Shown here: positions 1,532 to 17,136 of the stretch, in pieces | Position numbering within the stretch: the stretch's first letter is position 1 | Layout of the letters: every line of letters begins with the position of its first letter | Assembly: GCA_949289125.1 (NCBI GenBank) | Contig: CASEME010000018.1 | Location: 134,359 to 198,358, forward strand | DNA: 64,000 nucleotides | Reading direction: 5' to 3' | From: an uncultured Eubacteriales bacterium | GTDB lineage: Bacteria > Bacillota > Clostridia > Christensenellales > CAG-314 | Notes under the pieces: generated by a model | The model's input: only the letters and a program-made list of their open reading frames with translations | Told to the model about the DNA's origin: nothing | Database searches by the model: none | Translations under genes and position numbers: made by a program

Positions 1532-1665
1532 TAGTATCGCTCCTTATGCTGTTAAAATTATAACATAATAAGGATTTAATTGCAATAATTACAATGAACA
1601 GTAAAAAAGGCGATCACTAGTGAAGTGACCGACTTAATTTATATTAGATATTATTAACTAAACAA

Positions 1666-2334: not shown

Positions 2335-3528
2335 TTATTCTATAGCTTCCTGTTCTAGCTTGCAGTTGTTTGTTAACATGTATTCTGTTAACTTTACAAA
2401 TTCTGCATCTTTAATATTTTTCAATCGTTTAATATCATTTGCTGTTAGTTTTTTCCAGCTTTTTCTGTTCTCAATTAAAGTATCTATATCCATTTTATAA
2501 GGTGCAAATGCAATACCAGTCTTACTCCTTAGATGCTTTAAAATATTAATTCCACCGGCATCTATATCTCCAAAATGTGAAAAGAATAGATTTTGATTAC
2601 TATTATAAAGTTTTTTTAAAAGCATTCTTTTTGTTTGATTATGAAATCCGCCTAAATACACTACAATGCAATCTTCTTTATCAAAAGTGTAAAATGTTGT
2701 TAAATTTTCTACAGTAATAACCTTTTTAGAGCCTATACTAATAAACTTCAAATCATTTATCATTTTGTCTGACAAACAAATTTCATATCCTAATTGCATC
2801 AAATTTATAACAACATTGTTAATTTCAAAACACACATTCCCTTTCATAATGGCATATGTAGTATTTTTTACAAGATTTTTTTCGCACAGAATTTCACAAA
2901 CTGTTTCCTCACTAAAATCGTCTATGCCACAAGTATCGTCAAATTCATATAAGATTTTTGCTATTTTTGTCTTTAATTTTTCAAACTTCTTAGAATCGCC
3001 AAATGTTTTTACGGAAAAGTCTCTAAATTTTGTTTCTTTATCCAATTTTTGTATTTCTTTTAGTCCAAGCAATATTTCATTTAGTTGATTACTTGAATCA
3101 AAATATGCTTTAGGCATAGCATATTTTTTCATTATCCATTCATTGCAAAATGACACAAAGTTGCCTATAATTCCATCTTTACTTTCTGCATTTAATATTT
3201 GACAAACTTTATTCAAATCATCAGCAGGATTGGATCGTTTGAGAAATTTATACACTTCATTTACATTTTCCACATTAAGTTCTAATGATTTAAAATAATC
3301 ATATCTATCTTTTTCAATTTTGATAAAGCCCCATTGACTGTATTGCGAGAGAATAGCGTCATTACGATCTCTATAATTATATGAGTCCCTACACACATAT
3401 GTTTCTAACTCTTTATCGTTGAGACCAAGTGAGATCTTTATATTTTTTTGACTACCTTTTTTAGACAGTACACTATTCTCATATTTGTCTAATAATCTAT
3501 TTAAAATATTCTTGCCAAAAGTTGACAT
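2335..3528 (-). CDS. jetD: Wadjet JetD (MksG-like, Toprim/DUF2220-type nuclease subunit)
   Basis: 397 aa, last gene of a four-gene operon. C-terminal Toprim-like block VITVENLTTFYTF...VYLGGFHN...FSHFGDIDAGGINIL. Sits 8 nt after jetC. Confidence 0.85.
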   Translation of the reverse strand: MSTFGKNILNRLLDKYENSVLSKKGSQKNIKISLGLNDKELETYVCRDSYNYRDRNDAILSQYSQWGFIKIEKDRYDYFKSLELNVENVNEVYKFLKRSNPADDLNKVCQILNAESKDGIIGNFVSFCNEWIMKKYAMPKAYFDSSNQLNEILLGLKEIQKLDKETKFRDFSVKTFGDSKKFEKLKTKIAKILYEFDDTCGIDDFSEETVCEILCEKNLVKNTTYAIMKGNVCFEINNVVINLMQLGYEICLSDKMINDLKFISIGSKKVITVENLTTFYTFDKEDCIVVYLGGFHNQTKRMLLKKLYNSNQNLFFSHFGDIDAGGINILKHLRSKTGIAFAPYKMDIDTLIENRKSWKKLTANDIKRLKNIKDAEFVKLTEYMLTNNCKLEQEAIE

Positions 3529-3536
3529 TATTGCTC

Positions 3537-6500
3537 CTAAGAAATATATTGTATGAATATACGGTTATTAATTTTTGTCAAACCTACTACTGTGTCCATA
3601 TATTCAGTTAGCGTAGCCATTCTTATAGAAGGAACTACTATACATAACTGAATATCCAATTTTTTGTAAAATTCCATCAACGCATTTATCCTACTTTCGT
3701 CCATGTTGTTGAAGGCTTCATCATAAATTACAGTACAAGCAGAAGTATTTTTATCGCCTAAAATTAGTTGATCAAAACATGTAGCTATTATTACATAAAA
3801 TGGTGTCTGCGTTTCGCCACCACTTTTTTCTTTATTTGTTTTGGAAAAATATGAAACATTATCATACTTATTTGTAGTTTTTATATCAAATTTCATATAA
3901 TTTCTATAATCAAGATAACGATTTAACATCTTTTCCGATTCACTACCTGACTTTTCTATTATAATTCTATCGAAAAGTCTTTTTAAAATATCTTTATCTC
4001 TTTCGTCAAGAACTTCATCAAAAAATGTATTGGCTTCTAAGAGCTTACCTGAGGTAATAATTCGATAATAATCTTTCATCTCGTCATCGTCAGAAGAAGA
4101 ATATACAAATTGATAAACCTCATCATCAATTCCAAATGGATTGTCTTTTAAATTTTTGTTTATAGACTTTAATGTATCCTTTGCGTCCTCAATTCTCTCC
4201 GAAAGTTTTGATAGAAAATCTGTCTTAAATCCGCTTTGGCATCTTTCAAACGCAACATCAGCTCTGGATTTATAATCCAACAAGCTTCTGTTTTTCAACT
4301 TATTATATTCATTGACAAAATCTATTACATTTTCAATTAGAGTTGACATACTTGGAGAATACTTGCTAACATATTCTCTCATTCCCCTTTCTATTTCACT
4401 CTTCATTGCATTATTAGAATTTTGTATTTTTTGACTATCTTCCCAAACTTGTCGTAAATCATATTTTTCTTCTGTTACATAATTTGAACAAAATTTTTCA
4501 TAATCTATTTTATCCAGTTTTTGACAAACCTTTGAATATTCTTCACTTTGTGTTTGATAGTCGACTGTCAATTTTTTAATTTCTTCACCTATAGCACCTT
4601 GATCTCTAACTTTAATTTCTTTTTGATGTTCTTCTTCATTTATCCTATTATTAATATTAAGAAGTTCATTTTCTACATTTTTTAAAGTTTCGCTTATTGT
4701 AAAAATATTATCGTCTTTTTCTACTTCGTCTATTTCGGCTTGCACAACTTCACGTTCGCTCATACAAACATCTTTGGCTTTCCATAAATCTTCTATGTCA
4801 ACAATCTCTTTAATTTTTGAACTTTCAATTACTCTAATTAGCTCTTTAAGATTAATCGTTTCTTTTTCTGCTAATTCTTTTTGAGCTTTTAGATCTTCTA
4901 TTTTACCAAGTAAAATGTTTTTTCTTTTTATTATAGAGTTACTGCCGACATACGGATACTCATATATTTCAGGTTTAATATTCCTTACTGTCCTATTTTT
5001 ATATACCATGCAGGTATCAGTAATCGCTGTTTGATAATTTTTTAATTCACCTACACTATCAACACAAACAACATTACCTAATAGCATATGAGCCACAAAT
5101 CGAGCATATTGATTTGTTATATTTAATTTGTTAAACAGTGTATTTTCATTTGTATCATATTCCTTTGCTCTATCACAACGCACTATACCAACGCCATAAA
5201 TATTCAAGTCAAATTTGAATTTTTCATATACTTCAAGCGCATAGTCATAATAATTAGGTTCAATGATCAAATCAAATCTTTGTGTGTTCAAATATCCTTC
5301 GATAGCATTAGCCCATCGCATATCATTTATCTCAAGATATTCACAAAGAGGGCGGACTTCGACGTCTTTTTGATAGTTCTTAAATAGTTCTCTCTTTGAT
5401 AAATCAATTAAGGTAGTTGTCCTTTTATCGTATGTATTCTTTCCCTTTTCTATTGCCTCTAATTCGTGTTGCCGTTCGTGCAAATTACTTTCTATGCTAG
5501 ATATATCTGCTTCTAATTGCAAAAGACGTCTATATTTCTCATCTTTTAAACTTTGTAAATCTTCTTTGTAACTTCTTACATGTTCTTTAAAAAGCCCAAA
5601 GTTTTTATTTTTGATATCTTCAAAAAATCTATATCTTAACCCCAAGTCTTTGATAATTATATTTTCACTTGAAATTATTTTTTCGACATTATCAATTTTT
5701 TTAGAAATTTCGTTAAGTTTAAGTTCTACGTTAGACAAACACTTTTTCTTTTCTTCAAGTACTTTGTATAATTCATTATTTACCAAGTTTATTCTCTGCG
5801 AAACATAACTTGACCTTTTGTCATCTAATTGCTTCAGTGTTTCTCTGTGAATATTTATTCCAGTGACTAACTTTTCATAATCTTTTTCTTTACTTTTAAT
5901 CTTTTTTTCTAAATCTTTTAAGTGCAAAAGAACTTTTATTGCTTCATAAAATTTCAGACGCTTTGTATTTTCATAGTATTTTTCTGCTTTATCAACAAAT
6001 GTCTCTAAAGTTTGAACTTTCTGTTCTTCTTTATCCAACTGCATTTTTATTTCTCTATAACTTCTTATTTCTTCCATCAATGCATCTATTTCTATGTTAT
6101 TATCTTTAAGGAGAAAGTTATTGACAAAAGTTGACACTTCGTTAATGGGTTTGAATGCAATAGCTTTTCTCAACAATTCTGCATATCTTTCTGGATTATC
6201 CAATTTTAATATATCACGGGCAATTGTTTTACGGCGATCCCTTTGAGAGCCATTAAGTTTAGTATCGGAAAATGCAACTTGTTTGGATTTCAAAATGTTT
6301 TTTAATTCTGAAAAATTAACTATCTTACCTTCTTGGATATAATCATTGTCACATATATGATAATTCTGTACAATGTAAAACTTTACCTTGGGCTTACCAT
6401 CATCAACGATTTCTATGGTCGCACCCAGCACCATTGGGAATTTGTCATTTTCATCTTCGTACTGCAAAGCAATATGAGATATAACATCAGCTGTATTTCT

Positions 6501-6752
6501 TAAAAATTCTTTGCCATCTCCTTCATTGCCTAACTTTCCCCTTACATAAGATTTGAGCGTTCTTTTACCATCGGCATTAGCTGCATTATTGAAACAATTA
6601 TCGTCGCCACCCGAAAGCACAAAATATATTGCATCTGTAAGCGTTGACTTTCCGCAACCATTTTCGCCCGTCAACAAAAAATTACCTTGAACCTCTACAC
6701 TAGTATTGATAAAAAAATGCCAATTAATTAATTTAATCTTCGTCAACTTCAT
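3537..6752 (-). CDS. jetC: Wadjet JetC (SMC/MukB-like ATPase)
   Basis: ~1070 aa. Walker A GENGCGKSTLTDAIYF, long coiled-coil middle, signature-like SGGETQTPFYV, Walker B VIYDEAFNNMDESR. Preferred start is ATG 6752 (GAGGAAG RBS); the ORF track start is 6776. Confidence 0.9.
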   Translation of the reverse strand: MKLTKIKLINWHFFINTSVEVQGNFLLTGENGCGKSTLTDAIYFVLSGGDDNCFNNAANADGKRTLKSYVRGKLGNEGDGKEFLRNTADVISHIALQYEDENDKFPMVLGATIEIVDDGKPKVKFYIVQNYHICDNDYIQEGKIVNFSELKNILKSKQVAFSDTKLNGSQRDRRKTIARDILKLDNPERYAELLRKAIAFKPINEVSTFVNNFLLKDNNIEIDALMEEIRSYREIKMQLDKEEQKVQTLETFVDKAEKYYENTKRLKFYEAIKVLLHLKDLEKKIKSKEKDYEKLVTGINIHRETLKQLDDKRSSYVSQRINLVNNELYKVLEEKKKCLSNVELKLNEISKKIDNVEKIISSENIIIKDLGLRYRFFEDIKNKNFGLFKEHVRSYKEDLQSLKDEKYRRLLQLEADISSIESNLHERQHELEAIEKGKNTYDKRTTTLIDLSKRELFKNYQKDVEVRPLCEYLEINDMRWANAIEGYLNTQRFDLIIEPNYYDYALEVYEKFKFDLNIYGVGIVRCDRAKEYDTNENTLFNKLNITNQYARFVAHMLLGNVVCVDSVGELKNYQTAITDTCMVYKNRTVRNIKPEIYEYPYVGSNSIIKRKNILLGKIEDLKAQKELAEKETINLKELIRVIESSKIKEIVDIEDLWKAKDVCMSEREVVQAEIDEVEKDDNIFTISETLKNVENELLNINNRINEEEHQKEIKVRDQGAIGEEIKKLTVDYQTQSEEYSKVCQKLDKIDYEKFCSNYVTEEKYDLRQVWEDSQKIQNSNNAMKSEIERGMREYVSKYSPSMSTLIENVIDFVNEYNKLKNRSLLDYKSRADVAFERCQSGFKTDFLSKLSERIEDAKDTLKSINKNLKDNPFGIDDEVYQFVYSSSDDDEMKDYYRIITSGKLLEANTFFDEVLDERDKDILKRLFDRIIIEKSGSESEKMLNRYLDYRNYMKFDIKTTNKYDNVSYFSKTNKEKSGGETQTPFYVIIATCFDQLILGDKNTSACTVIYDEAFNNMDESRINALMEFYKKLDIQLCIVVPSIRMATLTEYMDTVVGLTKINNRIFIQYIS

Positions 6753-7386
6753 TATATTCTTCCTCTTCTTTTGCAATATAAGTTTTGAGTTTATTATTTA
6801 TTAGATCTATATCATTTATTTTTACAACCATAGCTACTGTAGGAAAAATCTCTACAACATTATTCACCTCATAATTGTTTTTATCGAAATTAATCAACTT
6901 ATATTTTTTTAAATTACTAAGTGCATCTATGATCTGAGTTTTAGGAATTTTATCCTTATTCTTATAAATACCCGTATCATCTAATGCGGACAAAAGTTCA
7001 TCTATGGTTATTGATATGTTGGTATTTGCATCAATACTTTCTTTGCTTTTCAAATAATAAAACTTTCTCAGCAACACCAAAATAACTGTTTCCATTTTCT
7101 TTAATTTTACCCTGTTACGATCAGTTGTACTTTCAAGATAAAATATCTTGCGCATATCGTCATGCACAAGTTGAAATTCTATCATAGCAAAGTATGCTTG
7201 AATAATTTCTTTCATTGCCAATATAGAATAATAATCATTTTTATCTTCACTTAACTGCCCATAAACAAAGTTATATCCTATTAATTTATTACAGAGCTTG
7301 GCGAATAAATCTTTTTTCGTATCATTTAATGTATGATAAATTTCATTGAATTTTGTACATATTGTATCTTTAGAATGTGCACTCAT
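6733..7386 (-). CDS. jetB: Wadjet JetB (MukE/MksE-like, DUF4194-type)
   Basis: 217 aa with an acidic C-terminus. ATGA overlap with jetA stop, overlaps jetC start. Size and position fit the jetABCD order. Confidence 0.75.
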   Translation of the reverse strand: MSAHSKDTICTKFNEIYHTLNDTKKDLFAKLCNKLIGYNFVYGQLSEDKNDYYSILAMKEIIQAYFAMIEFQLVHDDMRKIFYLESTTDRNRVKLKKMETVILVLLRKFYYLKSKESIDANTNISITIDELLSALDDTGIYKNKDKIPKTQIIDALSNLKKYKLINFDKNNYEVNNVVEIFPTVAMVVKINDIDLINNKLKTYIAKEEEEYNEVDED

Positions 7387-8777
7387 TTCTTTTTCTCCAC
7401 AATGTAATCTGTTATTAATTTGTCCTTACAATAAAATACTTTTTGATTATATGTAATCGAATACGAAACTATTTTATTTTGACTGTATAATCCTGCTAAA
7501 AATACCTTGATTAAATCTTCGCTATCACAAATATTCATTTGCGATGCCGTCATGCTATTCCTTTCTCCTAATTGTTTACTGATAAATTTGTCAATACTTC
7601 TACAATTAAATTTTGTTTCATTAATAAATTTTTCTCTTGATTTTTTTAATTCAACTTCGGCAACAGGATCAATTACATAATCCAGTTGTGATGTTGCATT
7701 TCTTCTTCTAATTCTTGGCGTATATAAAGAATTTTCATCCAATTTACCAAAATCAAATATAGAAAACAAACCCATATCATCAACATAATCGTCACTTTGA
7801 GCAATATTTTTAAGTAGCTCAATAATCTTACCTTCAATATCAACTTCCTCATTTAACAAGAAAGCAATCTTTGACTTTGCAGTCGTTGCATATTTTGTAT
7901 TTCTTTTGTTGAGATTTTCCAAGTTGTCTTCGATATCATTAAACTGATCTAAAACATATCCCAGAGCCTCACGAAAAAAACTCTCTGCTTCTTTTTGATT
8001 TTCTTCATTAACGATTCCATTTTTTTTCTTATTGATATATTCTCCCACCATATTGGAAAAATTATCTCTTTCAAATAGTGATTTTATCTTATCTATAATT
8101 GAATGTTTATATTTAGCAGGATTATCCTTGATTCTTAAATTATCAAAAGTTTTTAAAATTACCTTATCTTGATATTCCACTAAAAATTGATCCAATATTT
8201 CCCTAGGCGTCAAGCTTTCATTTGCCAGTAGCTTTCGAATATATTTTTTTATACTTACATTTAGTCCCCTTAGCCTATCTATCAATTCTTTCGTATTTTT
8301 ATACATCTGCTCTACGATATCAGTGGAGTGAGCAGTTTGAAAATTTTTAAGGGCAGAGTAAATGCTATAAACATAACCTGTATATTCTACAGGTCTTGTA
8401 TCATTTTTTACAATTTCTTCCATTGCATTGAGAATTATAATAGCATTACTATCCATTTGATATGTTGTTTTTAATAGTTTATTATCATTTTCGTCTACTA
8501 CCCAACCATATTTCAAAAAATATCGCAATTTTTTTGATGCAATTGTTTTAATATCAGCACTTTCTATTTCACCACTTTCATCATCATAAATATTTGATGG
8601 GCAATTTTCAAGATAATCCACTAGCCATGAAAGTACCTCATCACGAGGAAACTGTTTCATTTCATTATTCATTTTAAGATTTATTAGGCATAGCAAATCA
8701 TAATTTAATCTTTTATTGATCCCCGTTAAAGGAAGAAAGAATTTCTCATTCACGAATTCAAAAAAATTTGTTGACAT
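7383..8777 (-). CDS. jetA: Wadjet JetA (MukF/MksF-like kleisin, DUF3375-type)
   Basis: ~464 aa, first gene of the operon, size and position as in jetABCD. ORF track start 8783 is a GTG; ATG at 8777 follows a GAGG. Confidence 0.75.
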   Translation of the reverse strand: MSTNFFEFVNEKFFLPLTGINKRLNYDLLCLINLKMNNEMKQFPRDEVLSWLVDYLENCPSNIYDDESGEIESADIKTIASKKLRYFLKYGWVVDENDNKLLKTTYQMDSNAIIILNAMEEIVKNDTRPVEYTGYVYSIYSALKNFQTAHSTDIVEQMYKNTKELIDRLRGLNVSIKKYIRKLLANESLTPREILDQFLVEYQDKVILKTFDNLRIKDNPAKYKHSIIDKIKSLFERDNFSNMVGEYINKKKNGIVNEENQKEAESFFREALGYVLDQFNDIEDNLENLNKRNTKYATTAKSKIAFLLNEEVDIEGKIIELLKNIAQSDDYVDDMGLFSIFDFGKLDENSLYTPRIRRRNATSQLDYVIDPVAEVELKKSREKFINETKFNCRSIDKFISKQLGERNSMTASQMNICDSEDLIKVFLAGLYSQNKIVSYSITYNQKVFYCKDKLITDYIVEKKK

Positions 8778-8950
8778 ATGCACCTCAAAAAAAATAATAC
8801 AATATTAGCCTTTTAATCTTATTACAAAACAATTTATACTTTATAATCCAATGCATTATAAATAGAACTGACAAATATAGATTTAACTTTTGTTTATATT
8901 CAAACTCTATCCTATCAATTCTCTTGGTGATATAAGTGCTTCTATATGTA

Positions 8951-9157
8951 TCACTCATCACTATTCAATCTCCCTACTGATACTTGAGCACCAAAAACAG
9001 CCAAGGCTTGATTAACTTTGTCAAGACGTAAAGTTTTTTTACCTTGTTCTAATTCTCGAACAAAGCGGAGACCAAGTCCTGCGCGTATAGCAAACTCTAC
9101 TTGGGTTAAACCTAAAGCTTTTCTATTTTGTTTTACAAACTCACTTATGTTTTTCAT
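8951..9157 (-). CDS. XRE-family HTH regulator, HipB / y4mF-like
   Basis: 68 aa. LGLTQVEFAIRAGLGLRFVRELEQGKKTLRLDKVNQALAVFG matches the HTH plus the TLRLDKV tail typical of HipB-type regulators. Same strand as jetA and directly upstream of it. No hipA nearby. Confidence 0.85.
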   Translation of the reverse strand: MKNISEFVKQNRKALGLTQVEFAIRAGLGLRFVRELEQGKKTLRLDKVNQALAVFGAQVSVGRLNSDE

Positions 9158-9184
9158 AGCAAAATTCTATAATCCAACTTAAAA

Positions 9185-9300
9185 TTTATACCAATAATTT
9201 ATACCCTTTCGGTGCTTTTGTCAAGCCTTCTATTAATATTATACCCAAACGGGTTTATTTGTTTTACAAATTTTATATTTAGTACCCTAAAGGGTATAAC
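9185..9300. promoter_or_regulatory. operator-like array: three ACCC-N4-GGGT type palindromes with TTATACC flanks
   Basis: 9203-9214 ACCCTTTCGGTG (imperfect). 9243-9254 ACCCAAACGGGT. 9283-9296 TACCCTAAAGGGTA (perfect 14-nt palindrome). TTATACC recurs at 9186, 9198, 9238 and 9349. The array lies in the divergent intergenic region between the XRE gene and the phosphatase gene. Confidence 0.45.
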
Positions 9301-9447
9301 GTTATATTTTTGATATATCTCAATTCTAAAATTGTTACATCGAAAAAACTTATACCAACCAAAATATATTGTATTTTATACTTCAATGCATTAAAATATA
9401 TATTAAACCAAATAGCAAATTTTACTTAAGAGTATAAGGAGTTTTAC

Positions 9448-10221
9448 ATGAGATATTATGTTGTATCTGATATACACGGATTTTACACCGAGCTAATCAC
9501 CACTTTGGAGGAAAAAGGATTTTTTGCAGACACGCAACCTCACAAACTTGTTATATGTGGAGATTTGTTTGACAGAGGCAAGCAAGCACTTCAACTACAA
9601 AAATTCATACTAGATCTAATAGAAAAAGATCAAGTTATCTTAATACGAGGTAATCACGAAGATTTGTTTGTAGACCTTCTTGCAAATTGGGACAAGGCTA
9701 GTTATCTTCATGGCTATCATAATTCCAATGGAACATTAGATACTGTATTGCAATTAACAAATAGTACATTTGTAGAATTATTAGAAAAAAATATTGAAAT
9801 ATTCACAAAAGCTAAAAACTCGCCATTTGTAAATAAAATTTTGCCATTAATGAAAGATTACTTTGAAACAAATAATTATATCTTTGTGCATGGTTGGATA
9901 CCTTGCAATCAAATACAACTATATCCGTATGCTAAAACACATAATAGACTAGTTAATTGGAGAAACGCAACAAAAGAACAATGGGATTTAGCTCGTTGGA
10001 CAAACGGTATGGAAGCAGCACATGATGGTATTATTGAGCACAACAAAACTATTGTTTGTGGACACTGGCACACTTCCTTTGGACATAGTTTTTATGAGAA
10101 AAAATGTAGCGAGTTTGGAGCAGACGCTGACTTTACACCTTATTACTCAAAAGGCATTATTGCTATTGATGCATGCACCGCTTATACCAGAAAAATAAAC
10201 TGCTTAATAATAGAAGATTAA
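9448..10221 (+). CDS. PPP-family metallophosphoesterase (Ser/Thr phosphatase / ApaH-like)
   Basis: 257 aa. Motifs VVSDIHG, CGDLFDRG, RGNHE, VHGW, CGHWH. AGGAG RBS upstream. Confidence 0.85.
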   Translation: MRYYVVSDIHGFYTELITTLEEKGFFADTQPHKLVICGDLFDRGKQALQLQKFILDLIEKDQVILIRGNHEDLFVDLLANWDKASYLHGYHNSNGTLDTVLQLTNSTFVELLEKNIEIFTKAKNSPFVNKILPLMKDYFETNNYIFVHGWIPCNQIQLYPYAKTHNRLVNWRNATKEQWDLARWTNGMEAAHDGIIEHNKTIVCGHWHTSFGHSFYEKKCSEFGADADFTPYYSKGIIAIDACTAYTRKINCLIIED

Positions 10222-10385
10222 AATTGAATAATTTTTCAAAATATTGTAAGTATGTTACAATGAGAATATTAAATTAGATTATTGGAATATTTATCCTTTC
10301 TTAATGAACGTATTGAAGACTTTGTAGTGGTAAAATTTTTGCATAAGCTCCAAAATGGTATTAATAGCATTTAGATTAAATTAAT

Positions 10386-10420
10386 GGCACTATTGTTCTT
10401 ATCAATAGTGCCTATTTGTA
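10386..10420. terminator. bidirectional intrinsic terminator
   Basis: Perfect 10-bp stem GGCACTATTG / CAATAGTGCC with T-rich flank, between convergent genes. Confidence 0.6.
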
Positions 10421-10460
10421 TTAACAAAATAGTTTGTATGCTCAGTTCACATTAAAGACT

Positions 10461-10977
10461 TTACAACACAATTTCGTATTTATAATCCTTCATGATTATA
10501 TCTGTTCCTCTTTTCTTATATGTGCTTTCACCTACAATTTTCCCGCCACATTTTTGAGCCACACGATTGGAAGCAGTATTTCCCTGACTTACATAAATAG
10601 TCACTTTCTCAGCCCCTTGACTACGAGCATAATCTATCATTGCTTGAGCAATTTCAGTCGCATAGCCTTGACACCAAAAATTCTTATGTACGCAATAAGC
10701 AATTATCGTACACCTTTTTGTCATCACTTATCACAAAACTACATGTCCCTACCCGTTCTAGCGAATTCTTAAAAACAGGGATCAAATAGCAACATTCCTC
10801 ATCCTCGCCTAGGCCTTCTAACATCTTCAAATAGTTCTCATCTATATCTTCTTTTGCTTCATCAGGCAAATATTGTCCCATCTCTGGATTGTTCCAGATA
10901 CTATATGCCCACAAAGCATCTTCTTTAGTGTATCCTCTTAATATAAGCCTTGAAGTTTCAATATCATTTATTTTCAT
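10461..10977 (-). pseudogene. GNAT (RimJ/RimL-like) N-acetyltransferase, split by a 1-nt frameshift
   Basis: ORFs 10684-10977 (MKINDIETSRLILRGYTKEDA...) and 10461-10727 (...IAYCVHKNFWCQGYATEIAQAMIDYA...) are the N- and C-halves of one GNAT. Removing one A in GATAATTGC (~10716) restores ...KKVYDIAYCVHKNFW. Confidence 0.8.
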
Positions 10978-11283
10978 AAAATCCTCCGTTAAATTATACT
11001 TTTCGCCATTGCTTCTTTTAGCAAGGTATTCTGTTCCGTTTCTTTATGATACGAATTGTCGCATAGTACGCCATCACAAATATGCTGTGTTCGCTCAATG
11101 CATTATTCAGTTTTTTGTTAGTTTACATAATCTATGTAAATGCTTAATAGCACCTCTATCATTAGAAGTAAGCATTGACAACACTTTTTTCAAAGACATT
11201 TATATTATGACTTGAATGTTTTTAGTAGTCAAGAGAATTATAAAAGTTTTGCATTAGTCACAAATATTTGACAATAATCAAAC

Positions 11284-11518
11284 TAAAAAGTTGCCCCACA
11301 GAGTGAAAAGTAAAGTAAAATGAATAACGAAGTAACTTTGTTACTATGCGATACTTTCTACTTTGTGGGGTCTATATAAATAACATTGAATAACAATTTT
11401 GCGGTCTATAACTCGTGAAAAAATTTGCTGCAGGGATTTTTCTAAAAGGGCAGGTATGCGTTTTAAGAGTGAAAAATAGGGCTATTTTCCGAGTGGGTAC
11501 TTTGCCCATTTATTCTGA
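11284..11518. repeat. copy 1 of a ~235-nt structured non-coding element (direct repeat of 14005-14243)
   Basis: Aligns along its whole length with 14005-14243. Identical blocks include gttactatgcgatactttctactttgtgggg, attgaataacaattttgcggtc and atgcgttttaag. Hairpin CCCCACAGAG...CTTTGTGGGG with inner stem AGTAAC/GTTACT. Confidence 0.8.
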
Positions 11519-11519
11519 C

Positions 11520-11552
11520 AACAAAAAGACAGTAGGCATATTGACCTACTGT
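11520..11552 (-). terminator. intrinsic terminator of the TAC operon
   Basis: Stem GACAGTAGG / CCTACTGTC followed on the minus strand by TTTTT. Lies 17 nt after the chaperone stop. Confidence 0.6.
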
Positions 11553-11568
11553 CTAATATTAATTTCAA

Positions 11569-11988
11569 CTAATTGATATTATTTTGATTATCCACCAATG
11601 CATTTACATCAATTGGGGGCATTATAATCGGCACCATTGCTGGTTGTGTTGTAATAAGTGAAACTTGACTTCTAATGTAAGGGAACATTATTGCAACTGT
11701 GTTTTTCTTCAAAATCTGCTCTGCTGTTGCATCATCAATGTTTTCTGCGTCTAACTTAAAATATCCTACCGTCTGTAAATAAACCCTTAAAGTATCTTCA
11801 TCATTTGTAATAGTTGTATCTATTGTCACTCTTACTTGATTTTTATTATCTTTTTTTTCAGCATATTTTACTGATATACTAGTTTTAAATTCTGTATCTT
11901 TTGTTTTCTTTTTTAATTCATATGACATCTGCGAAAACACTAAATCCTGCATTATTAATTTACTATTTACATTGTTATTTTCTTTCAT
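11569..11988 (-). CDS. SecB-like chaperone (TAC-system chaperone)
   Basis: C-terminal NTVAIMFPYIRSQVSLITTQPAMVPIIMPPIDVNAL matches the SecB hallmark (..LFPY.R..IS.L......PP..L.P.NF.AL). Preferred start ATG 11988 with AAGGTG RBS. Confidence 0.75.
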   Translation of the reverse strand: MKENNNVNSKLIMQDLVFSQMSYELKKKTKDTEFKTSISVKYAEKKDNKNQVRVTIDTTITNDEDTLRVYLQTVGYFKLDAENIDDATAEQILKKNTVAIMFPYIRSQVSLITTQPAMVPIIMPPIDVNALVDNQNNIN

Positions 11989-12002
11989 ATAATTCACCTT
12001 AA

Positions 12003-12392
12003 TTATGAATAACAAACTTCTGTTTTTTTAGGATCAAACGAGTTAGGCACATTACCTAAATAAGTATATCTAAACTTAAAAGCATCGGAAATTTTTTCTA
12101 CGAATTCATCATTGTTAATGAATTCATTAACCACTTCAACATGGTAAACTTTGTCCAAAATGCTTTTATCTTCTCTCATGAGAGTAAGTAATACTGCACT
12201 GCTTCCTTTTATTTTGTTTTTTCCTTGTTCCCATTTTTCAATAGTCTTTTTTGTAACACCCAAAATGTTTGCTAAAGCAATTTGTGTTAAATTATAATAC
12301 TCCCTAAATTCTTTTACATAGCTGGCATCAACATTGACATTTAACCTTTTGACTACTAATTTTTTGGCACTCAATAATCTCTTTATATTCAT
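12003..12392 (-). CDS. HigA/XRE-type antitoxin with C-terminal extension
   Basis: 129 aa. HTH NLTQIALANILGVTKKTIEKWEQGKNKIKGSSAVLLTLM followed by a ~45-aa tail. Start overlaps the toxin stop (TAATG). Confidence 0.8.
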   Translation of the reverse strand: MNIKRLLSAKKLVVKRLNVNVDASYVKEFREYYNLTQIALANILGVTKKTIEKWEQGKNKIKGSSAVLLTLMREDKSILDKVYHVEVVNEFINNDEFVEKISDAFKFRYTYLGNVPNSFDPKKTEVCYS

Positions 12393-12832
12393 TAAAAAGC
12401 CTCCCGTTTACTTATATTATACTCATCTATCAGCTTTTTTAGTTTGTTCATTGCTATTTTAGATATGTTTTCATCTTCACCATGAGCATGTCTGTATATA
12501 TGTAGAATAATTGCTATATTATCTTCACGATCTACCAACGTTATAACTCTGTAACCATTAGATTTACCCTTTTTTCTATAATTATCTTCTGTTCTTATTT
12601 TGCAACATGCAATTTTATAGTTTTCATTACACTGATACAATATAGAGTAAGTTTTTGATTTTCTATTAGCTTCTATCTCCGCTTGAACATTTTGTGCTAT
12701 CCGAATGAGTTCTTTTTCATCTATGTCTTTGCAATCTTTTTTTAAATTGAAAGGAGAATTAAGTAATTGTTCACTTATGTGATCTGGGTCATAAAATACT
12801 TGAAAATTTATTTTATTTGATATATTAATCAC
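12392..12832 (-). CDS. RelE/HigB-superfamily toxin
   Basis: 146 aa. KKGKSNGYRVITLVDREDNIAIILHIYRHAHGEDENIS resembles the K.GKSGGYRVI...I.LL.IY.K core of RelE/HigB toxins. First gene of a three-gene operon. Confidence 0.7.
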   Translation of the reverse strand: MINISNKINFQVFYDPDHISEQLLNSPFNLKKDCKDIDEKELIRIAQNVQAEIEANRKSKTYSILYQCNENYKIACCKIRTEDNYRKKGKSNGYRVITLVDREDNIAIILHIYRHAHGEDENISKIAMNKLKKLIDEYNISKREAF

Positions 12833-12848
12833 TCTCCTTTAATTATTA

Positions 12849-12863
12849 CCCTATTTAATAGGG
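12849..12863. promoter_or_regulatory. perfect palindrome upstream of the toxin gene (candidate antitoxin operator)
   Basis: CCCTATT-T-AATAGGG, 17 nt upstream of the toxin start codon. Confidence 0.4.
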
Positions 12864-13064
12864 CAATAACACTATAACATATCTTAAAAGAAAAGTAAAG
12901 TATTTTTCTCAATTTAGAAATCAATCAATTACAAATACATTTCATATAAAACAATATACTAATTTTAGATAAATTCAATATTGTTGTGCCATGATAGTAA
13001 ATTATAAATTTAATTTCAGCAAATATTTAAGACTTTGTAATCTAGTTCAGTAGCTCGTAATATC

Positions 13065-13535
13065 TTAAATATTCCCTTCGTATCTAGGACGAAAATAATA
13101 ATGCATTATTGCCTCAACTAGCTCAGTTGCCGCTTTGCCTTTGTCCTCTTTAATCAAAATATTTATTCTTTGTGTATTGGTCAAAATCCATTGTTTCACC
13201 GAAATATGATCTAATTGCATACTTTGATCTTTTAACAATGATTTTGCAAAAGTGCTTGGTGCACTGCAATTATAATGATGACTTACATATCTAGCATTTG
13301 ATTTAGGATTAACTTTACCAATTTTCATCACTGTATCGCCAAAGATAAAAAAATACACTGCACCATAACCTTTAGGCAAAGTCCTAGGTTGCACATGTGG
13401 ACAAGACATATCTTCCACATAATAATCACTTTCTGTTATTGGATAACCTAAACTAATAGATATTTCTTCAACAAACTTCATTATTTTAATGATTTTACTT
13501 TTCATCTTTTTACCTTTTAGATTTTTTTTCGTCAA
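13065..13535 (-). CDS. hypothetical protein, possibly GIY-YIG-like nuclease fold
   Basis: 156 aa. GAVYFFIFGDTVMKIGKV...SNARYVSHHYN...STFAKSLL...ATELVEAIMHYYF loosely fits GIY...YIG...R...H...E spacing. Start could be the internal M at 13505. The functional call is weak. Confidence 0.4.
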   Translation of the reverse strand: MTKKNLKGKKMKSKIIKIMKFVEEISISLGYPITESDYYVEDMSCPHVQPRTLPKGYGAVYFFIFGDTVMKIGKVNPKSNARYVSHHYNCSAPSTFAKSLLKDQSMQLDHISVKQWILTNTQRINILIKEDKGKAATELVEAIMHYYFRPRYEGNI

Positions 13536-13592
13536 CTAATTTAAAAATTCTAAACTAGTTATACATACACACTATTTTACAGTACAACAGGA

Positions 13593-13937
13593 TTACCTTT
13601 TCTTCAATTTGTGAGTATTTTCTTTATGCAAATGCCCATGAAAATGTACAGAATTTTGCCTTGACTTATTCTCGCTACTAAAATTGATACTAGTAGTAGT
13701 ATTTTTAACATTCGTTTTAGGTCCATAACGCAGTTCTAAGTACGCTGCATTTTTATCTGCTCGAGCGTTAGCAATTTTTAACTTTAGATTATCACGCTTG
13801 CGATCTTCAAATAATGATGTATTCTCCATTTTGTGTTCCAATTTATTAATTTTTTTACAAGCTTGACGATACTTATCTGCAGTTTTATTTCTGAATATCA
13901 TATTATGAATCATCCTTGTGACTTTATTATAACACAT
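13593..13937 (-). CDS. hypothetical small basic protein
   Basis: 114-aa ORF (possible later start MIHNMIF), lysine/arginine-rich with a His-rich tail HFHGHLHKENTHKLKKR. Lies 57 nt upstream of the 156-aa gene. Confidence 0.4.
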   Translation of the reverse strand: MCYNKVTRMIHNMIFRNKTADKYRQACKKINKLEHKMENTSLFEDRKRDNLKLKIANARADKNAAYLELRYGPKTNVKNTTTSINFSSENKSRQNSVHFHGHLHKENTHKLKKR

Positions 13938-14004
13938 AACTATGACAACTGTTTGACATAATTTTCAATAAAATAATAATTATTTTTATATCAAATATAG
14001 ATAT

Positions 14005-14243
14005 AAAAAGTTTCCCCACAAAGGGGAAAGGTAAGGCAAATTGAGTAACGGAGTGAGGTTGTTACTATGCGATACTTTCTACTTTGTGGGGGTTATAAAA
14101 ATAATATTGAATAACAATTTTGCGGTCCGTAACTCGTGGGGAAATTTGGGGTATGGGATTTTTCTAAAAAGGCAAGTATGCGTTTTAAGGGCGAGAAATA
14201 GGGCTATTTGCCGAGTAGGCATTTTCGCCCATTTTCTTCTGAC
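14005..14243. repeat. copy 2 of the ~235-nt structured non-coding element
   Basis: See copy 1. Hairpin CCCCACAAAG...CTTTGTGGGG (14014-14090) with inner AGTAAC-11nt-GTTACT. Homology to copy 1 ends exactly at ...ctgac (14243). Confidence 0.8.
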
Positions 14244-14281
14244 TCCGTCACTCGCAGGTTCAAATCCTGCTACCCTAGCCA
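14244..14281 (+). other. tRNA 3'-end fragment (T-arm + acceptor 3' strand + discriminator + CCA), att-like
   Basis: tccgtcactc GCAGG TTCAAAT CCTGC TACCCTA G CCA. I could not fold a canonical D-arm or anticodon arm upstream, so this is not an intact tRNA gene. Confidence 0.6.
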
Positions 14282-14318
14282 CAATTCAAGCGACATTTTG
14301 TATGTCGCACACACAAAA

Positions 14319-14347
14319 AGCGTGCAAATTCTGCACGCTTTTTTTTC
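14319..14347 (+). terminator. intrinsic terminator following the tRNA-like end
   Basis: AGCGTGCA-aattc-TGCACGCT followed by T8. Confidence 0.7.
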
Positions 14348-14425
14348 TCCCTTTTTGCTTACCTTCCCTTTTGCTTTAATGAACAGGACACATCAAAATG
14401 ATGTGACACTCGCATTGCTCGCTAT

Positions 14426-14465
14426 TCCGTCACTGCGTTCCTTACAGATCCTGCTGCCATTGCCA
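14426..14465 (+). repeat. decayed second copy of the tRNA 3'-end fragment
   Basis: tccgtcactgcgttccttacagatcctgctgccattgcca versus tccgtcactcgcaggttcaaatcctgctaccctagcca. The first 9 nt, atcctgct and the terminal gcca are shared. Confidence 0.45.
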
Positions 14466-14831
14466 TTTTGAGATGCTTTTTAGCTAATTTAACGCTAAAA
14501 CGCGTCTTTTTAATGATGACTTTCTACCGCCCTACCCAACATTGCAGATTTGTGGAATAAATTGTTGCTATTTTACAGTCATTGATTTTATTTATAATTA
14601 TAATGTTAATTTAGACAATTGACTTCCATGTATGAGCCGTCACCAGCCTTGTAAACTTATAATAGCCCAAATTGAAGCAGACGTTATATATCATGTCATT
14701 TATACTCGCTGACAATATTGCTTGCAATACTTTTATTACTTTCAAAAGTTGGTTTTTTGTAATATTTTCCTCTTATAAAAACTAATGATATTACCATTGT
14801 CTTAGTAACACATTCACCTTTTCTAATAGAT

Positions 14832-15444
14832 ATGAACTATCTTGACGAAATACGTGTAATATGCACCAAAGATGGTAGATGTTACATAAAGAATGACTTT
14901 TCTGCAGTTGATCCAGATGATCAAAATTCATTAAAGCCAATTAAAGAGGCATTAACAGTGCACAACCATATTTTGTTAGATCCAGACAAAAAGGTTGTTT
15001 TTGTAGAAGGAATAACCGATTACAATTATATGACGACCTTTACACAAATCCTAAACAAAAAAAGACATAGTCTTCCTGCCAATTAAAGGCGTAGGTGACA
15101 TAACTGACAGCTCCAATAAAGCTAAACAACAAGAAATTATCAAATAGCTGTTGAAAATAAGAAAAACCAAAATATTGCTAATGTTAGACGGTGATAAGGC
15201 TGGCAAAGATATGGAAAAAGCGTGCGAAGATACCGCATTACCAGCATTCAATCTATCTAAGGTTGATAGCAATTTCAAAACAATAGAAAATTTATTCGAT
15301 AAAGATGATATATCGAAGTTTGGCCTTAAAGAAAAACATGCAGGAACATCATCTTTATTAAAAAGCTTTGAAAAAGAAGATAGCTTTAGCAAAACAACTA
15401 TAGACAACTTCAAAAAACTATTCGATTATATTGATAACAACTAA
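14832..15444 (+). pseudogene. Toprim-domain (OLD / DUF4435-type) nuclease remnant
   Basis: ORFs 14832-15086 (..KKVVFVEGITDYNYM..) and 15151-15444 (..ILLMLDGDKAGKD..) carry the Toprim E and DxD motifs. They are joined only by a +1 shift at the A7 run 15057-15063, plus an in-frame TAG at 15145-15147. No N-terminal ATPase part is present. Confidence 0.6.
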
Positions 15445-15691
15445 CTCTTTAATGCAGCTCAAAGGTTTGTTTTTTGAGCTGCATTTACTATCACATTGAA
15501 AATTTAATTGCACTCTTCACTTCAATGATAATACAACACTATTGTTAGCCACACCACAGTCAACTTGGTGGATAGGCTTTTGCAAACGAAAAGGATTATT
15601 TTTTATTTTTTGCTATACTTATTGATAATCATTACTATTTGTAGTACAATTTGCTATATTTGCAAAAACAATTTTGCAATTTGGAGAACAA

Positions 15692-17062
15692 ATGAAACAT
15701 TTATCAATGGAAGTAAGAGTACCTATTGAAAAAGACAACCCAAGTATTGTGCGTGACGAACAAAAGTGCATAAAATGCGGACAATGCAAACGGGTGTGTA
15801 CCGAACAAATAGGCGTACACAACAGATACACTTTGGAGCAAACAGACAATACTGCGCTGTGCATATCTTGCGGTCAATGCAGCAACGTATGCCCCACTAA
15901 CAGCATAACCGAAAAGTACGAATACGAGCAGTTTGCCAAAGCTATAAGTGACAAAAACAAAATTGTAGTTGTCAACACATCTCCCTCTGTGCGCGTTGCC
16001 TTAGGCGAAGAATTTGGGCTACCTTTAGGTCAATTTGTACAAGGCAAGATGGTTGCACTATTAAAAAAATTGGGTGTCGACTACGTATTGGACACCAACT
16101 TTGCCGCAGACCTAACCATAGTAGAAGAAGCAAGCGAGCTTATTGAACGTATTGTCAACAAAACTGCCCCACTGTCTCAATTTACAAGTTGCTGTCCGGC
16201 ATGGGTGGAATATGCGGAAACTTTTTATCCTGAGATACTGCCCAACTTATCCACAGCAAAAAGTCCTATCGGTATGCAAGGTCCTACAGTCAAAATATAC
16301 TTTGCAAAAAAAATGGGCATAGACCACAAAAAGATATTCAATGTTGCATTGACGCCTTGCACAGCCAAAAAACACGAAATACGCAGAGAAGAAATGTGTG
16401 CTTCTGCAAAATACCACAACAATCCATCGCTTAGAGATATGGATTGTGTAATAACCACGCGCGAATTGGCTATACTTGCCAAACAAAACAACATAGACTT
16501 CAACCAGTTGGAAGATATGCCTTATGATGACCTTATGGGACAAGCATCGGGAGCAGGAGTAATATTCGGCAATACGGGCGGCGTTATGGAGGCTGCTCTG
16601 CGCACTGCCTACGAGTACATTACCAAACAAAAAGCACCGCTAAAAATGCTTAGCCTTACTCCAATAAGAGGTTGCGACGGTATAAGAGAAGCATCTGTAA
16701 ATATTGGAGATATGACACTTAACGTTGCAGTTGTGTACGGTACTGCCAACGCTGCCAAACTACTGCAACTAATCAAAAGCGGACAAAAACAATATCACTT
16801 TGTGGAAGTTATGACTTGCCCCAACGGTTGCATAGGCGGAGGCGGTCAACCCAAAAACATATTGGCTGACAATCAAAACATACGACAACACCGTATGTCG
16901 GCTTTGTACAACAAAGATGCAAGTATGACTGTACGCACCAGCCATGAAAACCCCCAAATTACGCAAGTGTACAAAGAATTTTACGGCAAACCATTGAGCA
17001 AGCTTGCCGAAGAAATGTTGCATACAACATACACTGATAAAAGCGGCAAAATTAAAAAGTAA
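15692..17062 (+). CDS. hydA: [FeFe] hydrogenase, monomeric (2x[4Fe-4S] + H-cluster domain)
   Basis: CIKCGQCKRVC and CISCGQCSNVCP ferredoxin motifs. H-cluster motifs TSCCPAW, TPCTAKKHE, EVMTCPNGCIGGGGQP. Start ATG 15692 after GGAGAA. Confidence 0.9.
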   Translation: MKHLSMEVRVPIEKDNPSIVRDEQKCIKCGQCKRVCTEQIGVHNRYTLEQTDNTALCISCGQCSNVCPTNSITEKYEYEQFAKAISDKNKIVVVNTSPSVRVALGEEFGLPLGQFVQGKMVALLKKLGVDYVLDTNFAADLTIVEEASELIERIVNKTAPLSQFTSCCPAWVEYAETFYPEILPNLSTAKSPIGMQGPTVKIYFAKKMGIDHKKIFNVALTPCTAKKHEIRREEMCASAKYHNNPSLRDMDCVITTRELAILAKQNNIDFNQLEDMPYDDLMGQASGAGVIFGNTGGVMEAALRTAYEYITKQKAPLKMLSLTPIRGCDGIREASVNIGDMTLNVAVVYGTANAAKLLQLIKSGQKQYHFVEVMTCPNGCIGGGGQPKNILADNQNIRQHRMSALYNKDASMTVRTSHENPQITQVYKEFYGKPLSKLAEEMLHTTYTDKSGKIKK

Positions 17063-17100
17063 ATAGCCAACACAAATACCAAACAACTACATACAAAAAG

Positions 17101-17136
17101 AGGCGAAAGCGGAACCAACCGCCTTCGCCTTTTTTA
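17101..17136 (+). terminator. intrinsic terminator after hydA
   Basis: GGCGAAAGCGG...CCGCCTTCGCC followed by T6. Confidence 0.7.

What the first reader, a model, noticed from the sequence alone, without database searches (positions are those of the whole stretch)
8951..9300. Orphan HipB/y4mF-like XRE regulator placed in-line upstream of jetA, with a triple palindrome array: possible transcriptional gate for Wadjet
**Seen in sequence.**
- The 68-aa HTH protein has the TLRLDKV tail typical of HipB-type regulators.
- No hipA follows it. The next gene on the same strand is jetA, after 167 nt.
- Upstream of the XRE gene are three spaced ACCC-N4-GGGT sites.
- One of these is a perfect palindrome, TACCCTAAAGGGTA at 9283-9296. 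TTATACC flanks recur around the sites.

**Inference.**
- The XRE protein autoregulates and may control the jet operon and/or the divergent phosphatase.
- Regulator-gated defence systems are known (for example CapW/BrxR types). I am not aware of a HipB-like gate described for Wadjet.
Basis: partly seen in the sequence, partly recalled or inferred. Interest (0 to 1): 0.55.

Follow-up and report, generated by a model that had tools for sequence, protein, structure and literature searches.

The report
Orphan HipB relic beside Wadjet operon
The small regulator gene upstream of the Wadjet anti-plasmid operon is the surviving first gene of a broken three-gene HipBST toxin-antitoxin module, still carrying that module's own promoter and three binding sites, so it is a leftover that happens to sit next to Wadjet, not a purpose-built switch for it.

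Summary
A 68-aa XRE protein (8951-9157, minus strand) scores above NCBIfam's cutoff for the Y4mF/HipB family. It lies upstream of an intact type I jetABCD operon and is preceded by three evenly spaced ACCC-N4-GGGT-type sites.

The "empty" 167-nt spacer is not empty. It starts with hipS codons 1-10, fused in frame through a short microhomology to a 24-nt internal piece of hipT. The toxin genes were therefore deleted.

In every closest relative examined (87-97% identical HipB), the gene heads a hipB-hipS-hipT operon. Those operons have the same 8-nt gene overlap and the same three operators at about -138, -97 and -57. The triple palindrome is thus the native HipBST promoter-operator.

Apart from this window's own lineage, none of about 110 informative related hipB loci has jet genes downstream. 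None of the three nearest JetA clades has hipB upstream.

Autoregulation is well supported by inference. A dedicated "Wadjet gate" is not supported. Incidental read-through from the hipB promoter into jetA remains plausible. No terminator was found, and the relic reading frame stays open up to jetA's ribosome-binding site (about 1% of shuffles).

Interest is low to moderate.

The parts
9283..9299 (-). Operator O1 (distal): TTATACCC-TTTA-GGGTA on the minus strand, with a perfect ACCC-N4-GGGT core at 9284-9295.
   Evidence: An equivalent site lies at about -138 in hipBST loci L003, L004, L006, L007, L013, L019 and L020.
9238..9254 (-). Operator O2: ACCC-GTTT-GGGTATAAT on the minus strand, with a perfect core at 9243-9254. 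It starts 41 nt from O1.
   Evidence: These are invariant columns in alignment A1 across hipBST and orphan-hipB loci.
9199..9214 (-). Operator O3 (promoter-proximal, imperfect): CACC-GAAA-GGGTATAA on the minus strand. It lies in the -35/-10 spacer and runs into the -10.
   Evidence: It is conserved as CC-GAAA-GGGTATAAAAT in all aligned loci.
9196..9224 (-). Predicted sigma-70-type hipB promoter: TTGACA (9224-9219), 17-nt spacer, TAAATT (9201-9196).
   Evidence: 10 of 12 consensus positions. The TTGACA is conserved in alignment A1.
8951..9157 (-). hipB: a 68-aa XRE helix-turn-helix protein of the Y4mF/HipB family. It is now an orphan.
   Evidence: It is 87-97% identical to HipB of intact hipBST operons. 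The nearest solved structure is HipB(Lp), 8EZT. E20V is a lineage-specific change at a position that is E in 117 of 120 homologs.
8930..8958 (-). hipS relic: start codon and codons 1-10 (MSDTYRSTYI). It overlaps the hipB stop by 8 nt, exactly as in intact operons.
8911..8934 (-). hipT relic: a 24-nt internal fragment (HipT residues about 135-142, YITKRIDR). It is joined in frame to hipS' at a TATAT / (T)GCYTATAT microhomology. Homology ends at 8911/8910.
   Evidence: (100% identity over 24 nt to L003 5931-5954).
8785..8958 (-). Relic fusion ORF of 57 codons from the ATG at 8958 (58 from the GTG at 8961 listed by the ORF tool). It has 16 HipS/HipT-derived codons, then 41 codons of 19%-GC sequence of unknown origin. 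Its TGA stop overlaps the jetA Shine-Dalgarno sequence, 7 nt before the jetA ATG.
   Evidence: The frame stays open in only 51 of 5000 dinucleotide shuffles, while the other two frames have 5 and 6 stops. No Pfam, NCBIfam or PADLOC match.
7383..8777 (-). jetA (464 aa).
   Evidence: Pfam JetA 2.4e-78. PADLOC JetA1 4.6e-75.
6733..7386 (-). jetB (217 aa).
3537..6752 (-). jetC (about 1071 aa, SMC-like ATPase).
   Evidence: PADLOC JetC1 2.7e-242. The start follows the gene call in L001.
2335..3528 (-). jetD (397 aa, Toprim nuclease subunit).
9448..10221 (+). Divergent calcineurin-like metallophosphatase (257 aa). It is a neighbour and is not part of the ancestral hipBST module.
   Evidence: It is absent upstream of hipB in all related loci.

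Best explanation
**What it is (shown)**
- The 68-aa gene is hipB, the first gene of a tripartite hipB-hipS-hipT toxin-antitoxin operon. In that family HipT is the kinase toxin, HipS is the antitoxin and HipB is the DNA-binding repressor.
- The toxin part has been lost. A deletion of roughly 0.7 kb between short microhomologies fused hipS codon 10 to hipT codon about 136. A second breakpoint 24 nt later removed the rest.
- What survives is hipB with its native promoter and its three evenly spaced operators.

**How it works (inferred from family knowledge)**
- HipB dimers occupy O1-O3. O3 lies inside the promoter. The result is negative autoregulation.
- Without HipT as co-repressor, repression is probably weaker than in an intact module.

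**Relation to Wadjet**
- The adjacency to jetABCD is a by-product of gene loss and shuffling inside a low-GC defence island. It is not a conserved design.
- No terminator separates hipB from jetA (shown). The relic reading frame runs right up to jetA's ribosome-binding site (shown).
- Transcripts from the hipB promoter therefore probably continue into jetABCD, so HipB may incidentally set a low, self-limiting level of part of jet transcription (inference, about even odds).
For: **Family membership**
- TIGR03070 above cutoff.
- The closest solved relative is HipB of Legionella HipBST.

**Relatives sit in intact operons**
- HipBs at 97, 96, 94, 93 and 87% identity, and the abundant member P0177 of the same 90% cluster, all sit in hipB-hipS(110 aa, Couple_hipA)-hipT(about 322 aa, HipA_C) operons with an 8-nt hipB/hipS overlap.

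**Relics in the window**
- The window keeps the same 8-nt overlap and hipS codons 1-10.
- It also keeps a 24-nt hipT fragment 100% identical to L003, joined at a shared TGCCTATAT-type microhomology.

**Operators and promoter**
- The operator array and the TTGACA are conserved column by column in hipBST loci.
- The operator motif is unique in the 64 kb.
- Three evenly spaced HipB operators, and repression by HipB alone, are documented for HipBST (PMC10653801, PMC10627512). HipS, not HipB, is the antitoxin (PMC6581861).

**Survey**
- Of 76 informative metagenome hipB loci, 61 have hipS/hipT, 2 are partly decayed, 13 have neither, and 0 have jet genes.
- The nearest JetA clades have a Fic-HTH gene, McrBC-like genes or AbiE-SLFN upstream.
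- Related islands show further decay stages.

**Read-through**
- No terminator was found, the spacer RNA has no significant structure and there is no Rfam match.
- The open frame reaches the jetA Shine-Dalgarno sequence in about 1% of shuffles.
Against: - No expression or binding data exist for this locus; DNA binding and repression are inferred from homologs.
- The window's hipB lacks an obvious Shine-Dalgarno sequence. It has TAGAATTTTGCTATG where relatives have GGCGGTGCTATG or AAGGAATAATATG.
- It carries E20V at a position that is E in 117 of 120 homologs. The protein could be poorly made or already drifting.
- The -10 (TAAATT) is weaker than the family's TAAAAT.
- The spacer is 19% GC and contains several weak promoter-like hexamers, for example TTGAAT-18-TATATT at 8903-8874. 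jetA may have its own promoter.
- The open-frame statistic is post hoc.
- The origin of 8784-8910 is unknown.
Confidence: 0.75

Rival explanations
1. Dedicated or exapted gate. The HipB promoter-operator module has been recruited as the main, regulated promoter of jetABCD. Wadjet expression would then be held down by HipB and released when HipB is depleted, for example by stress proteolysis.
For: - hipB, the relic ORF and jetA-D lie on one strand with no terminator.
- The relic frame stays open for 41 AT-rich codons and stops inside the jetA Shine-Dalgarno sequence (1% of shuffles). This is what selection for translational coupling or against polarity would produce.
- Operators O1 and O2 are still perfect.
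- Regulator-associated Wadjet loci exist for the WYL family (PMC11662680).
Against: - The arrangement is found only in this lineage: 3 contigs of the same locus.
- There are 0 jet genes downstream in the other hipB loci surveyed.
- No hipB lies upstream of the nearest JetA clades.
- The 68-aa protein has no sensor domain.
- No operator lies near jetA.
- hipB has a weak Shine-Dalgarno sequence and the E20V change.
- Wadjet is argued to need constitutive expression (PMC11662680).
Confidence: 0.12
2. Inert scar. hipB and its operators are a decaying remnant with no influence on Wadjet. jetABCD would be transcribed from its own promoter in the AT-rich 8784-8910 segment. hipB would persist only because the deletion is recent, or because an orphan HipB gives some protection against incoming hipBST-bearing elements by cross-repression.
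For: - Decay of hipBST at the head of defence islands is recurrent. There are orphan 71-aa HipBs with their own terminator, loci with only operator relics and partly decayed loci L071 and L108.
- A weak promoter-like site lies at 8903-8874.
- The window's hipB has a degenerate Shine-Dalgarno sequence and E20V.
- Orphan hipB is common: 13 of 76 loci.
Against: - No terminator insulates hipB from jetA here. This contrasts with the 71-aa orphan lineage, which has a clear hairpin plus T-run.
- hipB is full-length, with 20-26 synonymous versus 3-9 nonsynonymous codon differences from relatives.
- The frame is improbably open up to jetA.
Confidence: 0.3
3. The 58-codon ORF (8785-8961) is a real new small protein that partners HipB. 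It has a hydrophobic tail, LNLYLSVLFIMHWIIKYKLF, and could be a small membrane toxin forming a new two-gene module.
For: - The frame is open in 19%-GC DNA.
- It has an 8-nt translational overlap with hipB.
- Its C-terminal half is hydrophobic.
Against: - Its N-terminus is demonstrably a HipS/HipT fusion scar.
- It has no family match.
- It was not called as a gene in L001.
- No homologous ORF lies downstream of any other hipB.
Confidence: 0.05

Closest known systems
HipB of tripartite HipBST toxin-antitoxin systems (E. coli O127 HipBST; Legionella pneumophila HipBST, PDB 8EZT)
   Same: - It is a small XRE helix-turn-helix protein encoded first in the operon, overlapping hipS.
- Three evenly spaced inverted-repeat operators lie upstream, the proximal one overlapping the promoter and the outer or inner ones imperfect.
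- HipB acts as the repressor, not the antitoxin (PMC6581861, PMC10653801, PMC10627512).
- Close homologs of the window protein sit in exactly such operons.
   Different: - hipS and hipT are deleted down to about 50 nt of scars here.
- The operator sequence (TATACCC-N4-GGGTATA, 40-41 nt start-to-start) differs from the Legionella motif (6-nt arms, 53-bp gaps).
- The protein is shorter (68 aa) than E. coli HipB of HipBST (107 aa).
Orphan antitoxin or regulator genes left by toxin-antitoxin decay
   Same: The regulator plus promoter-operator is retained after loss of the toxin. The same decay recurs in related islands.
   Different: Here the scar is not insulated by a terminator and abuts a large defence operon on the same strand.
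Defence-associated transcriptional regulators (CapW/BrxR WYL repressors; CapH-CapP; C proteins of restriction-modification systems)
   Same: A small repressor gene lies immediately upstream of, and co-oriented with, a defence operon, with palindromic operators at its own promoter.
   Different: - Those regulators co-occur with their defence systems across many taxa and carry or partner a signal-sensing module.
- This HipB has no sensor domain and shows no co-occurrence with Wadjet outside this single lineage.
Type I Wadjet (JetABCD)
   Same: All four genes are full-length with overlapping or adjacent reading frames.
   Different: Canonical Wadjet has no associated regulator gene. The hipB here is an accidental neighbour.

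Membership tests
HipB / Y4mF family (TIGR03070, 'couple_hipB') | XRE-type helix-turn-helix domain scoring above the family's curated cutoff. | tested here: met
   TIGR03070 77.3 bits against a 71.65-bit cutoff, residues 3-58. HTH_3 and HTH_31 match.
HipB / Y4mF family (TIGR03070, 'couple_hipB') | Encoded immediately upstream of, and coupled to, a HipA-type kinase gene (hipA, or split hipS + hipT). | tested here: not met
   No intact hipS, hipT or hipA is present. Only hipS codons 1-10 and 24 nt of hipT remain. The feature is met in all closest homologs, so membership is by descent: the gene is an orphaned member.
HipBST-type promoter-operator | Several evenly spaced inverted-repeat operators upstream of hipB, one overlapping the promoter. 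| tested here: met
   O1, O2 and O3 start at 9284, 9243 and 9203. O3 lies in the -35/-10 spacer. The array is conserved in hipBST loci. The architecture is as described for Legionella (PMC10653801).
HipBST-type promoter-operator | HipB binds the operators and represses transcription. | not testable with these tools
   This needs EMSA or footprinting and reporter assays.
Type I Wadjet (JetABCD) | jetA (DUF5716), jetB (DUF4194/MksE-like), jetC (SMC-like ATPase) and jetD (Toprim nuclease) in one operon. | tested here: met
   Pfam and PADLOC give full-length matches for all four.
Dedicated defence-system regulator (CapW/BrxR-like or CapH-like gate) | Regulator gene co-occurs with the defence system across independent lineages. 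| tested here: not met
   - 0 of 76 informative metagenome hipB loci have jet genes.
- 0 of about 35 places from protein look-ups have jet genes.
- JetA clades at 73-76% and 58% identity have other upstream genes.
Dedicated defence-system regulator (CapW/BrxR-like or CapH-like gate) | Signal-sensing domain or partner (WYL/WCX, protease partner). | tested here: not met
   The 68-aa protein consists of the helix-turn-helix domain only. No partner gene is present.
Dedicated defence-system regulator (CapW/BrxR-like or CapH-like gate) | Regulator and defence genes share a promoter or operator, shown as co-transcription. | tested here: inconclusive
   No terminator and the frame stays open to the jetA Shine-Dalgarno sequence. 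However, there is no operator in the spacer, weak alternative promoters exist, and there are no transcript data.

The most novel reading that the evidence does not exclude
A toxin-antitoxin control module has been exapted. After hipS and hipT were lost, the self-repressing hipB promoter became the (or a) promoter of jetABCD. Ribosomes would be handed from hipB through the relic fusion ORF to jetA by translational coupling. Wadjet would then be expressed at a homeostatic, HipB-limited level that rises when HipB is depleted.
Probability: 0.15. Interest if true: 0.5.

Novelty: new member of a known kind. Interest (0 to 1): 0.25.

Why it matters
As it stands, this mostly serves as a caution. An "orphan regulator in front of a defence operon" can be the scar of a decayed toxin-antitoxin module and need not be a regulatory design. 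The relics in the "intergenic" spacer are what reveal it.

There are two modest positive points:
- The conserved TATACCC-N4-GGGTATA triple-operator array gives a testable operator model for a large, unstudied clade of gut-Clostridia HipBST systems. These systems often head mobile defence islands.
- If hipB-promoter transcripts really feed jetABCD, this would be a natural example of a defence operon capturing a toxin-antitoxin promoter. That would bear on how defence-island genes acquire expression control after shuffling.

Tried and rejected
- **Homology of the jetA-proximal 127 nt (8784-8910).** There was no significant match to upstream regions of other jet loci or to any fetched locus. Its origin is unknown.
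- **The 37-nt imperfect direct repeat flanking the hipB module (8825-8861 and 9360-9396) as a possible insertion footprint.** Rejected: 16 of 200 shuffles score as well.
- **A terminator, attenuator or known RNA element in the spacer.** None was found.
- **Plasmid collection searches with JetA and HipB.** Only distant hits were returned, which were uninformative for the association.
- **Control of the divergent phosphatase by HipB.** No supporting evidence. The phosphatase is absent from all related hipB loci, and its putative promoter (9375-9404) lies beyond O1.
- **L002 as a natural "no-Wadjet" allele.** It matches the window through the first 29 codons of jetA and then diverges. It is an insertion or an assembly join, not a jet-less hipB locus.

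Full report
**1. Anatomy**

All the relevant genes read on the minus strand. A 68-aa ORF lies at 9157..8951. It is followed by jetA (ATG at 8777, ending at 7383), jetB (7386..6733), jetC (about 6752..3537) and jetD (3528..2335). A metallophosphatase gene diverges on the plus strand at 9448..10221.

Pfam and PADLOC identify the four jet genes as a complete type I Wadjet operon with full-length matches. The whole region from 1 to about 15,600 is 26-32% GC, against roughly 40-45% further into the window. It is therefore a low-GC island, and it also holds toxin-antitoxin-like genes.

**2.

The 68-aa protein scores 77.3 bits on NCBIfam TIGR03070 (couple_hipB / Y4mF antitoxin family; cutoff 71.65). 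It also matches HTH_3 and HTH_31. Its nearest solved relative by sequence is HipB of the Legionella HipBST system, 8EZT.

ACCC-N4-GGGT occurs only twice in the 64 kb, 41 nt apart, at 9243-9254 and 9284-9295. The expectation is 0.2, and no shuffle out of 100 reached two. A third, imperfect copy at 9203-9214 (ACCCTTTCGGTG) is the only other site with 2 or fewer mismatches in 8700-9460.

The consensus scan finds a TTGACA-17-TAAATT promoter on the minus strand at 9224..9196. The imperfect site lies in the -35/-10 spacer and its TATA flank runs into the -10.

- Only two of the three sites are perfect.
- The "perfect palindrome" at 9283-9296 has a non-symmetric central AA.

**3. The spacer is a scar, not a gap**

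An ORF overlaps the hipB stop by 8 nt (ATG at 8958) and begins MSDTYRSTYI.

The closest HipB homologs in public assemblies sit in hipB-hipS-hipT operons. This covers homologs at 97, 96, 94, 93 and 87% identity, plus the abundant member P0177 of the same 90% cluster. hipS (110 aa, Couple_hipA domain) overlaps hipB by the same 8 nt and begins MSDTYRTAYIYV. hipT (about 322 aa, HipA_C) follows.

At the DNA level:
- Window 9260-8940 aligns to these loci at 77-82% identity, from the operators through hipS codon about 7.
- Window 8934-8911 is then 100% identical to a 24-nt internal piece of hipT (L003 5931-5954; HipT residues YITKRIDR).
- The two pieces meet at a microhomology: TGCCTATAT in both hipS and hipT of L003, CTTATAT in the window. 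The junction is in frame because both genes encode A-Y-I there.
- Homology stops at 8911/8910.

So a deletion of about 0.7 kb, plus a second breakpoint, removed hipS and hipT. The 127 nt that remain before jetA (19% GC) match nothing retrieved.

**4. The triple palindrome is the native hipBST control region**

In intact hipBST loci from several lineages the same three sites lie at about -138, -97 and -57 from the hipB start:
- The distal two are TATACCC-N4-GGGT-type repeats.
- The proximal one is CC-GAAA-GGGTATAAAAT, between a conserved TTGACA and the -10.

The surrounding sequence diverges.

This mirrors published HipBST biology:
- In Legionella, three evenly spaced operators upstream of hipBST are each bound by HipB alone. 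The outer ones are asymmetric and the proximal one overlaps the promoter (PMC10653801).
- In E. coli HipBST, HipB is necessary and sufficient for repression, but it represses far better together with HipT (PMC10627512).
- HipS, not HipB, is the antitoxin (PMC6581861).

The best-supported mechanism for the feature itself is therefore that HipB dimers bind O1-O3 and autorepress P_hipB. With HipT gone, repression is probably leakier. This step is inferred from homologs; nothing was measured for this locus.

**5. Is it a gate for Wadjet?**

*Evidence against a designed or conserved association:*
- The exact protein occurs on three contigs, all the same locus.
- Among 80 metagenome loci encoding relatives (63-97% identity), 76 are informative. 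Of these, 61 have hipS and/or hipT directly downstream, 2 are partly decayed and 13 have other genes. Those other genes include a DUF262/GmrSD-like protein, an ATPase and a RhuM-like protein, judged from sequence motifs alone. None has jetA, jetB or jetC.
- None of about 35 further places from protein look-ups has jet next to hipB.
- The nearest JetA clades have different upstream genes and no sequence similarity to the window's jetA leader. The 73-76% clades have an HTH-Fic gene or McrBC-like genes plus a 108-aa ORF. The 58% clade has AbiE plus an SLFN-type helicase.
- There is no operator-like site in the hipB-jetA spacer.
- The protein is a bare helix-turn-helix domain without a sensor.

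*Evidence that hipBST commonly heads variable defence islands in these gut Clostridia and decays there:*
- hipBST often lies directly after a large serine recombinase or after the pyruvate phosphate dikinase (PPDK) gene.
- One widespread lineage has an orphan 71-aa HipB with its own terminator in front of AbiE-SLFN-GmrSD.
- Islands carrying AbiE-SLFN-JetABCD retain only O2/O3 relics, with hipB gone.

The window is one more state in this decay series.

*What keeps a weaker form of the idea alive:*
- No intrinsic terminator was found between hipB and jetA, the spacer RNA has no significant structure (z = -0.92) and there is no Rfam match.
- After the scar, the relic reading frame stays open through 41 codons of 19%-GC DNA. 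It stops at a TGA that overlaps jetA's GAGG Shine-Dalgarno sequence, 7 nt before the ATG. Only 51 of 5000 dinucleotide shuffles keep that frame open, and the other two frames have 5 and 6 stops.
- This fits continued translation from hipB to jetA, but the test is post hoc.

*Counter-points:*
- The window's hipB lacks the Shine-Dalgarno-like purine run seen in relatives.
- Its -10 is weaker than the family consensus.
- It carries E20V where 117 of 120 homologs have E.
- The AT-rich spacer contains weak promoter-like hexamers that could serve jetA independently.

**6. Verdict**

The feature is an orphaned HipB of a decayed HipBST module with its ancestral three-operator promoter. Confidence in this part is high.

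Autoregulation is likely. Read-through into jetABCD is plausible, at roughly even odds. A dedicated Wadjet gate is unlikely, at about 0.1-0.15.

Compared with known systems, it is a member by descent of the HipB/Y4mF family that fails the "coupled to a HipA-type kinase" criterion only because the kinase genes were deleted. It resembles defence-system regulators in position only.

Novelty is low: it is a new member of a known kind. The residual interest lies in the possible capture of a toxin-antitoxin promoter by a defence operon, and in the operator model for this HipBST clade.

Noticed in passing
L002 4892-5194 (corresponds to window just below 8695, inside jetA): A second metagenome contig is 99.98% identical to the window from 13585 down to 8695, through hipB and the first 29 codons of jetA. 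It then switches to unrelated, GC-richer DNA encoding a fragment on the opposite strand (...YEERLDEMWHIIPYNPKQIVEYNKQVEIIKSAGYKVLRNSHGKHKIVRRK). This is either a mobile-element insertion disrupting jetA in a co-existing strain or an assembly join.
   Followed up: partly
L008-L012 and L024-L028 (5001-5216); L122-L126 (about 2700-2800): hipBST shows a decay series at the head of gut-Clostridia defence islands:
- Intact hipBST sits after a serine recombinase or the PPDK gene.
- A widespread orphan 71-aa HipB keeps O2/O3 and has its own terminator, in front of AbiE-SLFN helicase-GmrSD or DEAD helicase.
- Islands with AbiE-SLFN-JetABCD have lost hipB, and only degenerate O2/O3 operator relics remain.
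   Followed up: partly
L029-L032 (for example L029 1975-2877, 416 nt upstream of jetA): In the JetA clade at 73% identity to the window's (P0130), the co-oriented upstream gene is a 300-aa protein combining an XRE-type helix-turn-helix domain with a Fic domain. This is another HTH-bearing, toxin-like neighbour of Wadjet. Whether it has any regulatory link to jet was not examined.
   Followed up: no
window 11569-12832 (minus strand); repeats at 11284-11519 and 14004-14243: A probable toxin-antitoxin-chaperone-like trio lies in the same low-GC island. It comprises an unannotated 146-aa ORF (12392-12832), an MqsA/HTH_3-like 129-aa protein (12003-12392) and a SecB-like 148-aa protein (11569-12015). 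Two non-coding segments of about 240 nt in the island are 84% identical to each other.
   Followed up: no
window 8771-8798 (+ strand): The best promoter-like match in the region (TTGACA-16-AATAAT, 11 of 12) is on the plus strand, overlapping the jetA start codon and pointing antisense into the relic ORF and hipB. It may be chance in AT-rich DNA, but an antisense transcript would affect both hipB and jetA translation initiation.
   Followed up: no
window 1-15600 versus 15600-24000: A sharp GC step (26-32% versus about 40-45%) marks the island boundary next to an Fe-only hydrogenase gene (15674-17062). The longer contig L001 shows that SIR2-like and DUF87 ATPase genes follow jetD beyond the window start. 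The island therefore carries several defence-type modules.
   Followed up: partly
window 17196-18755 (minus strand): A 519-aa ORF with weak SLFN-group-3 helicase and AAA_30 matches lies just outside the low-GC island. It overlaps a 223-aa plus-strand ORF. Its status as a real gene or a pseudogene was not examined.
   Followed up: no
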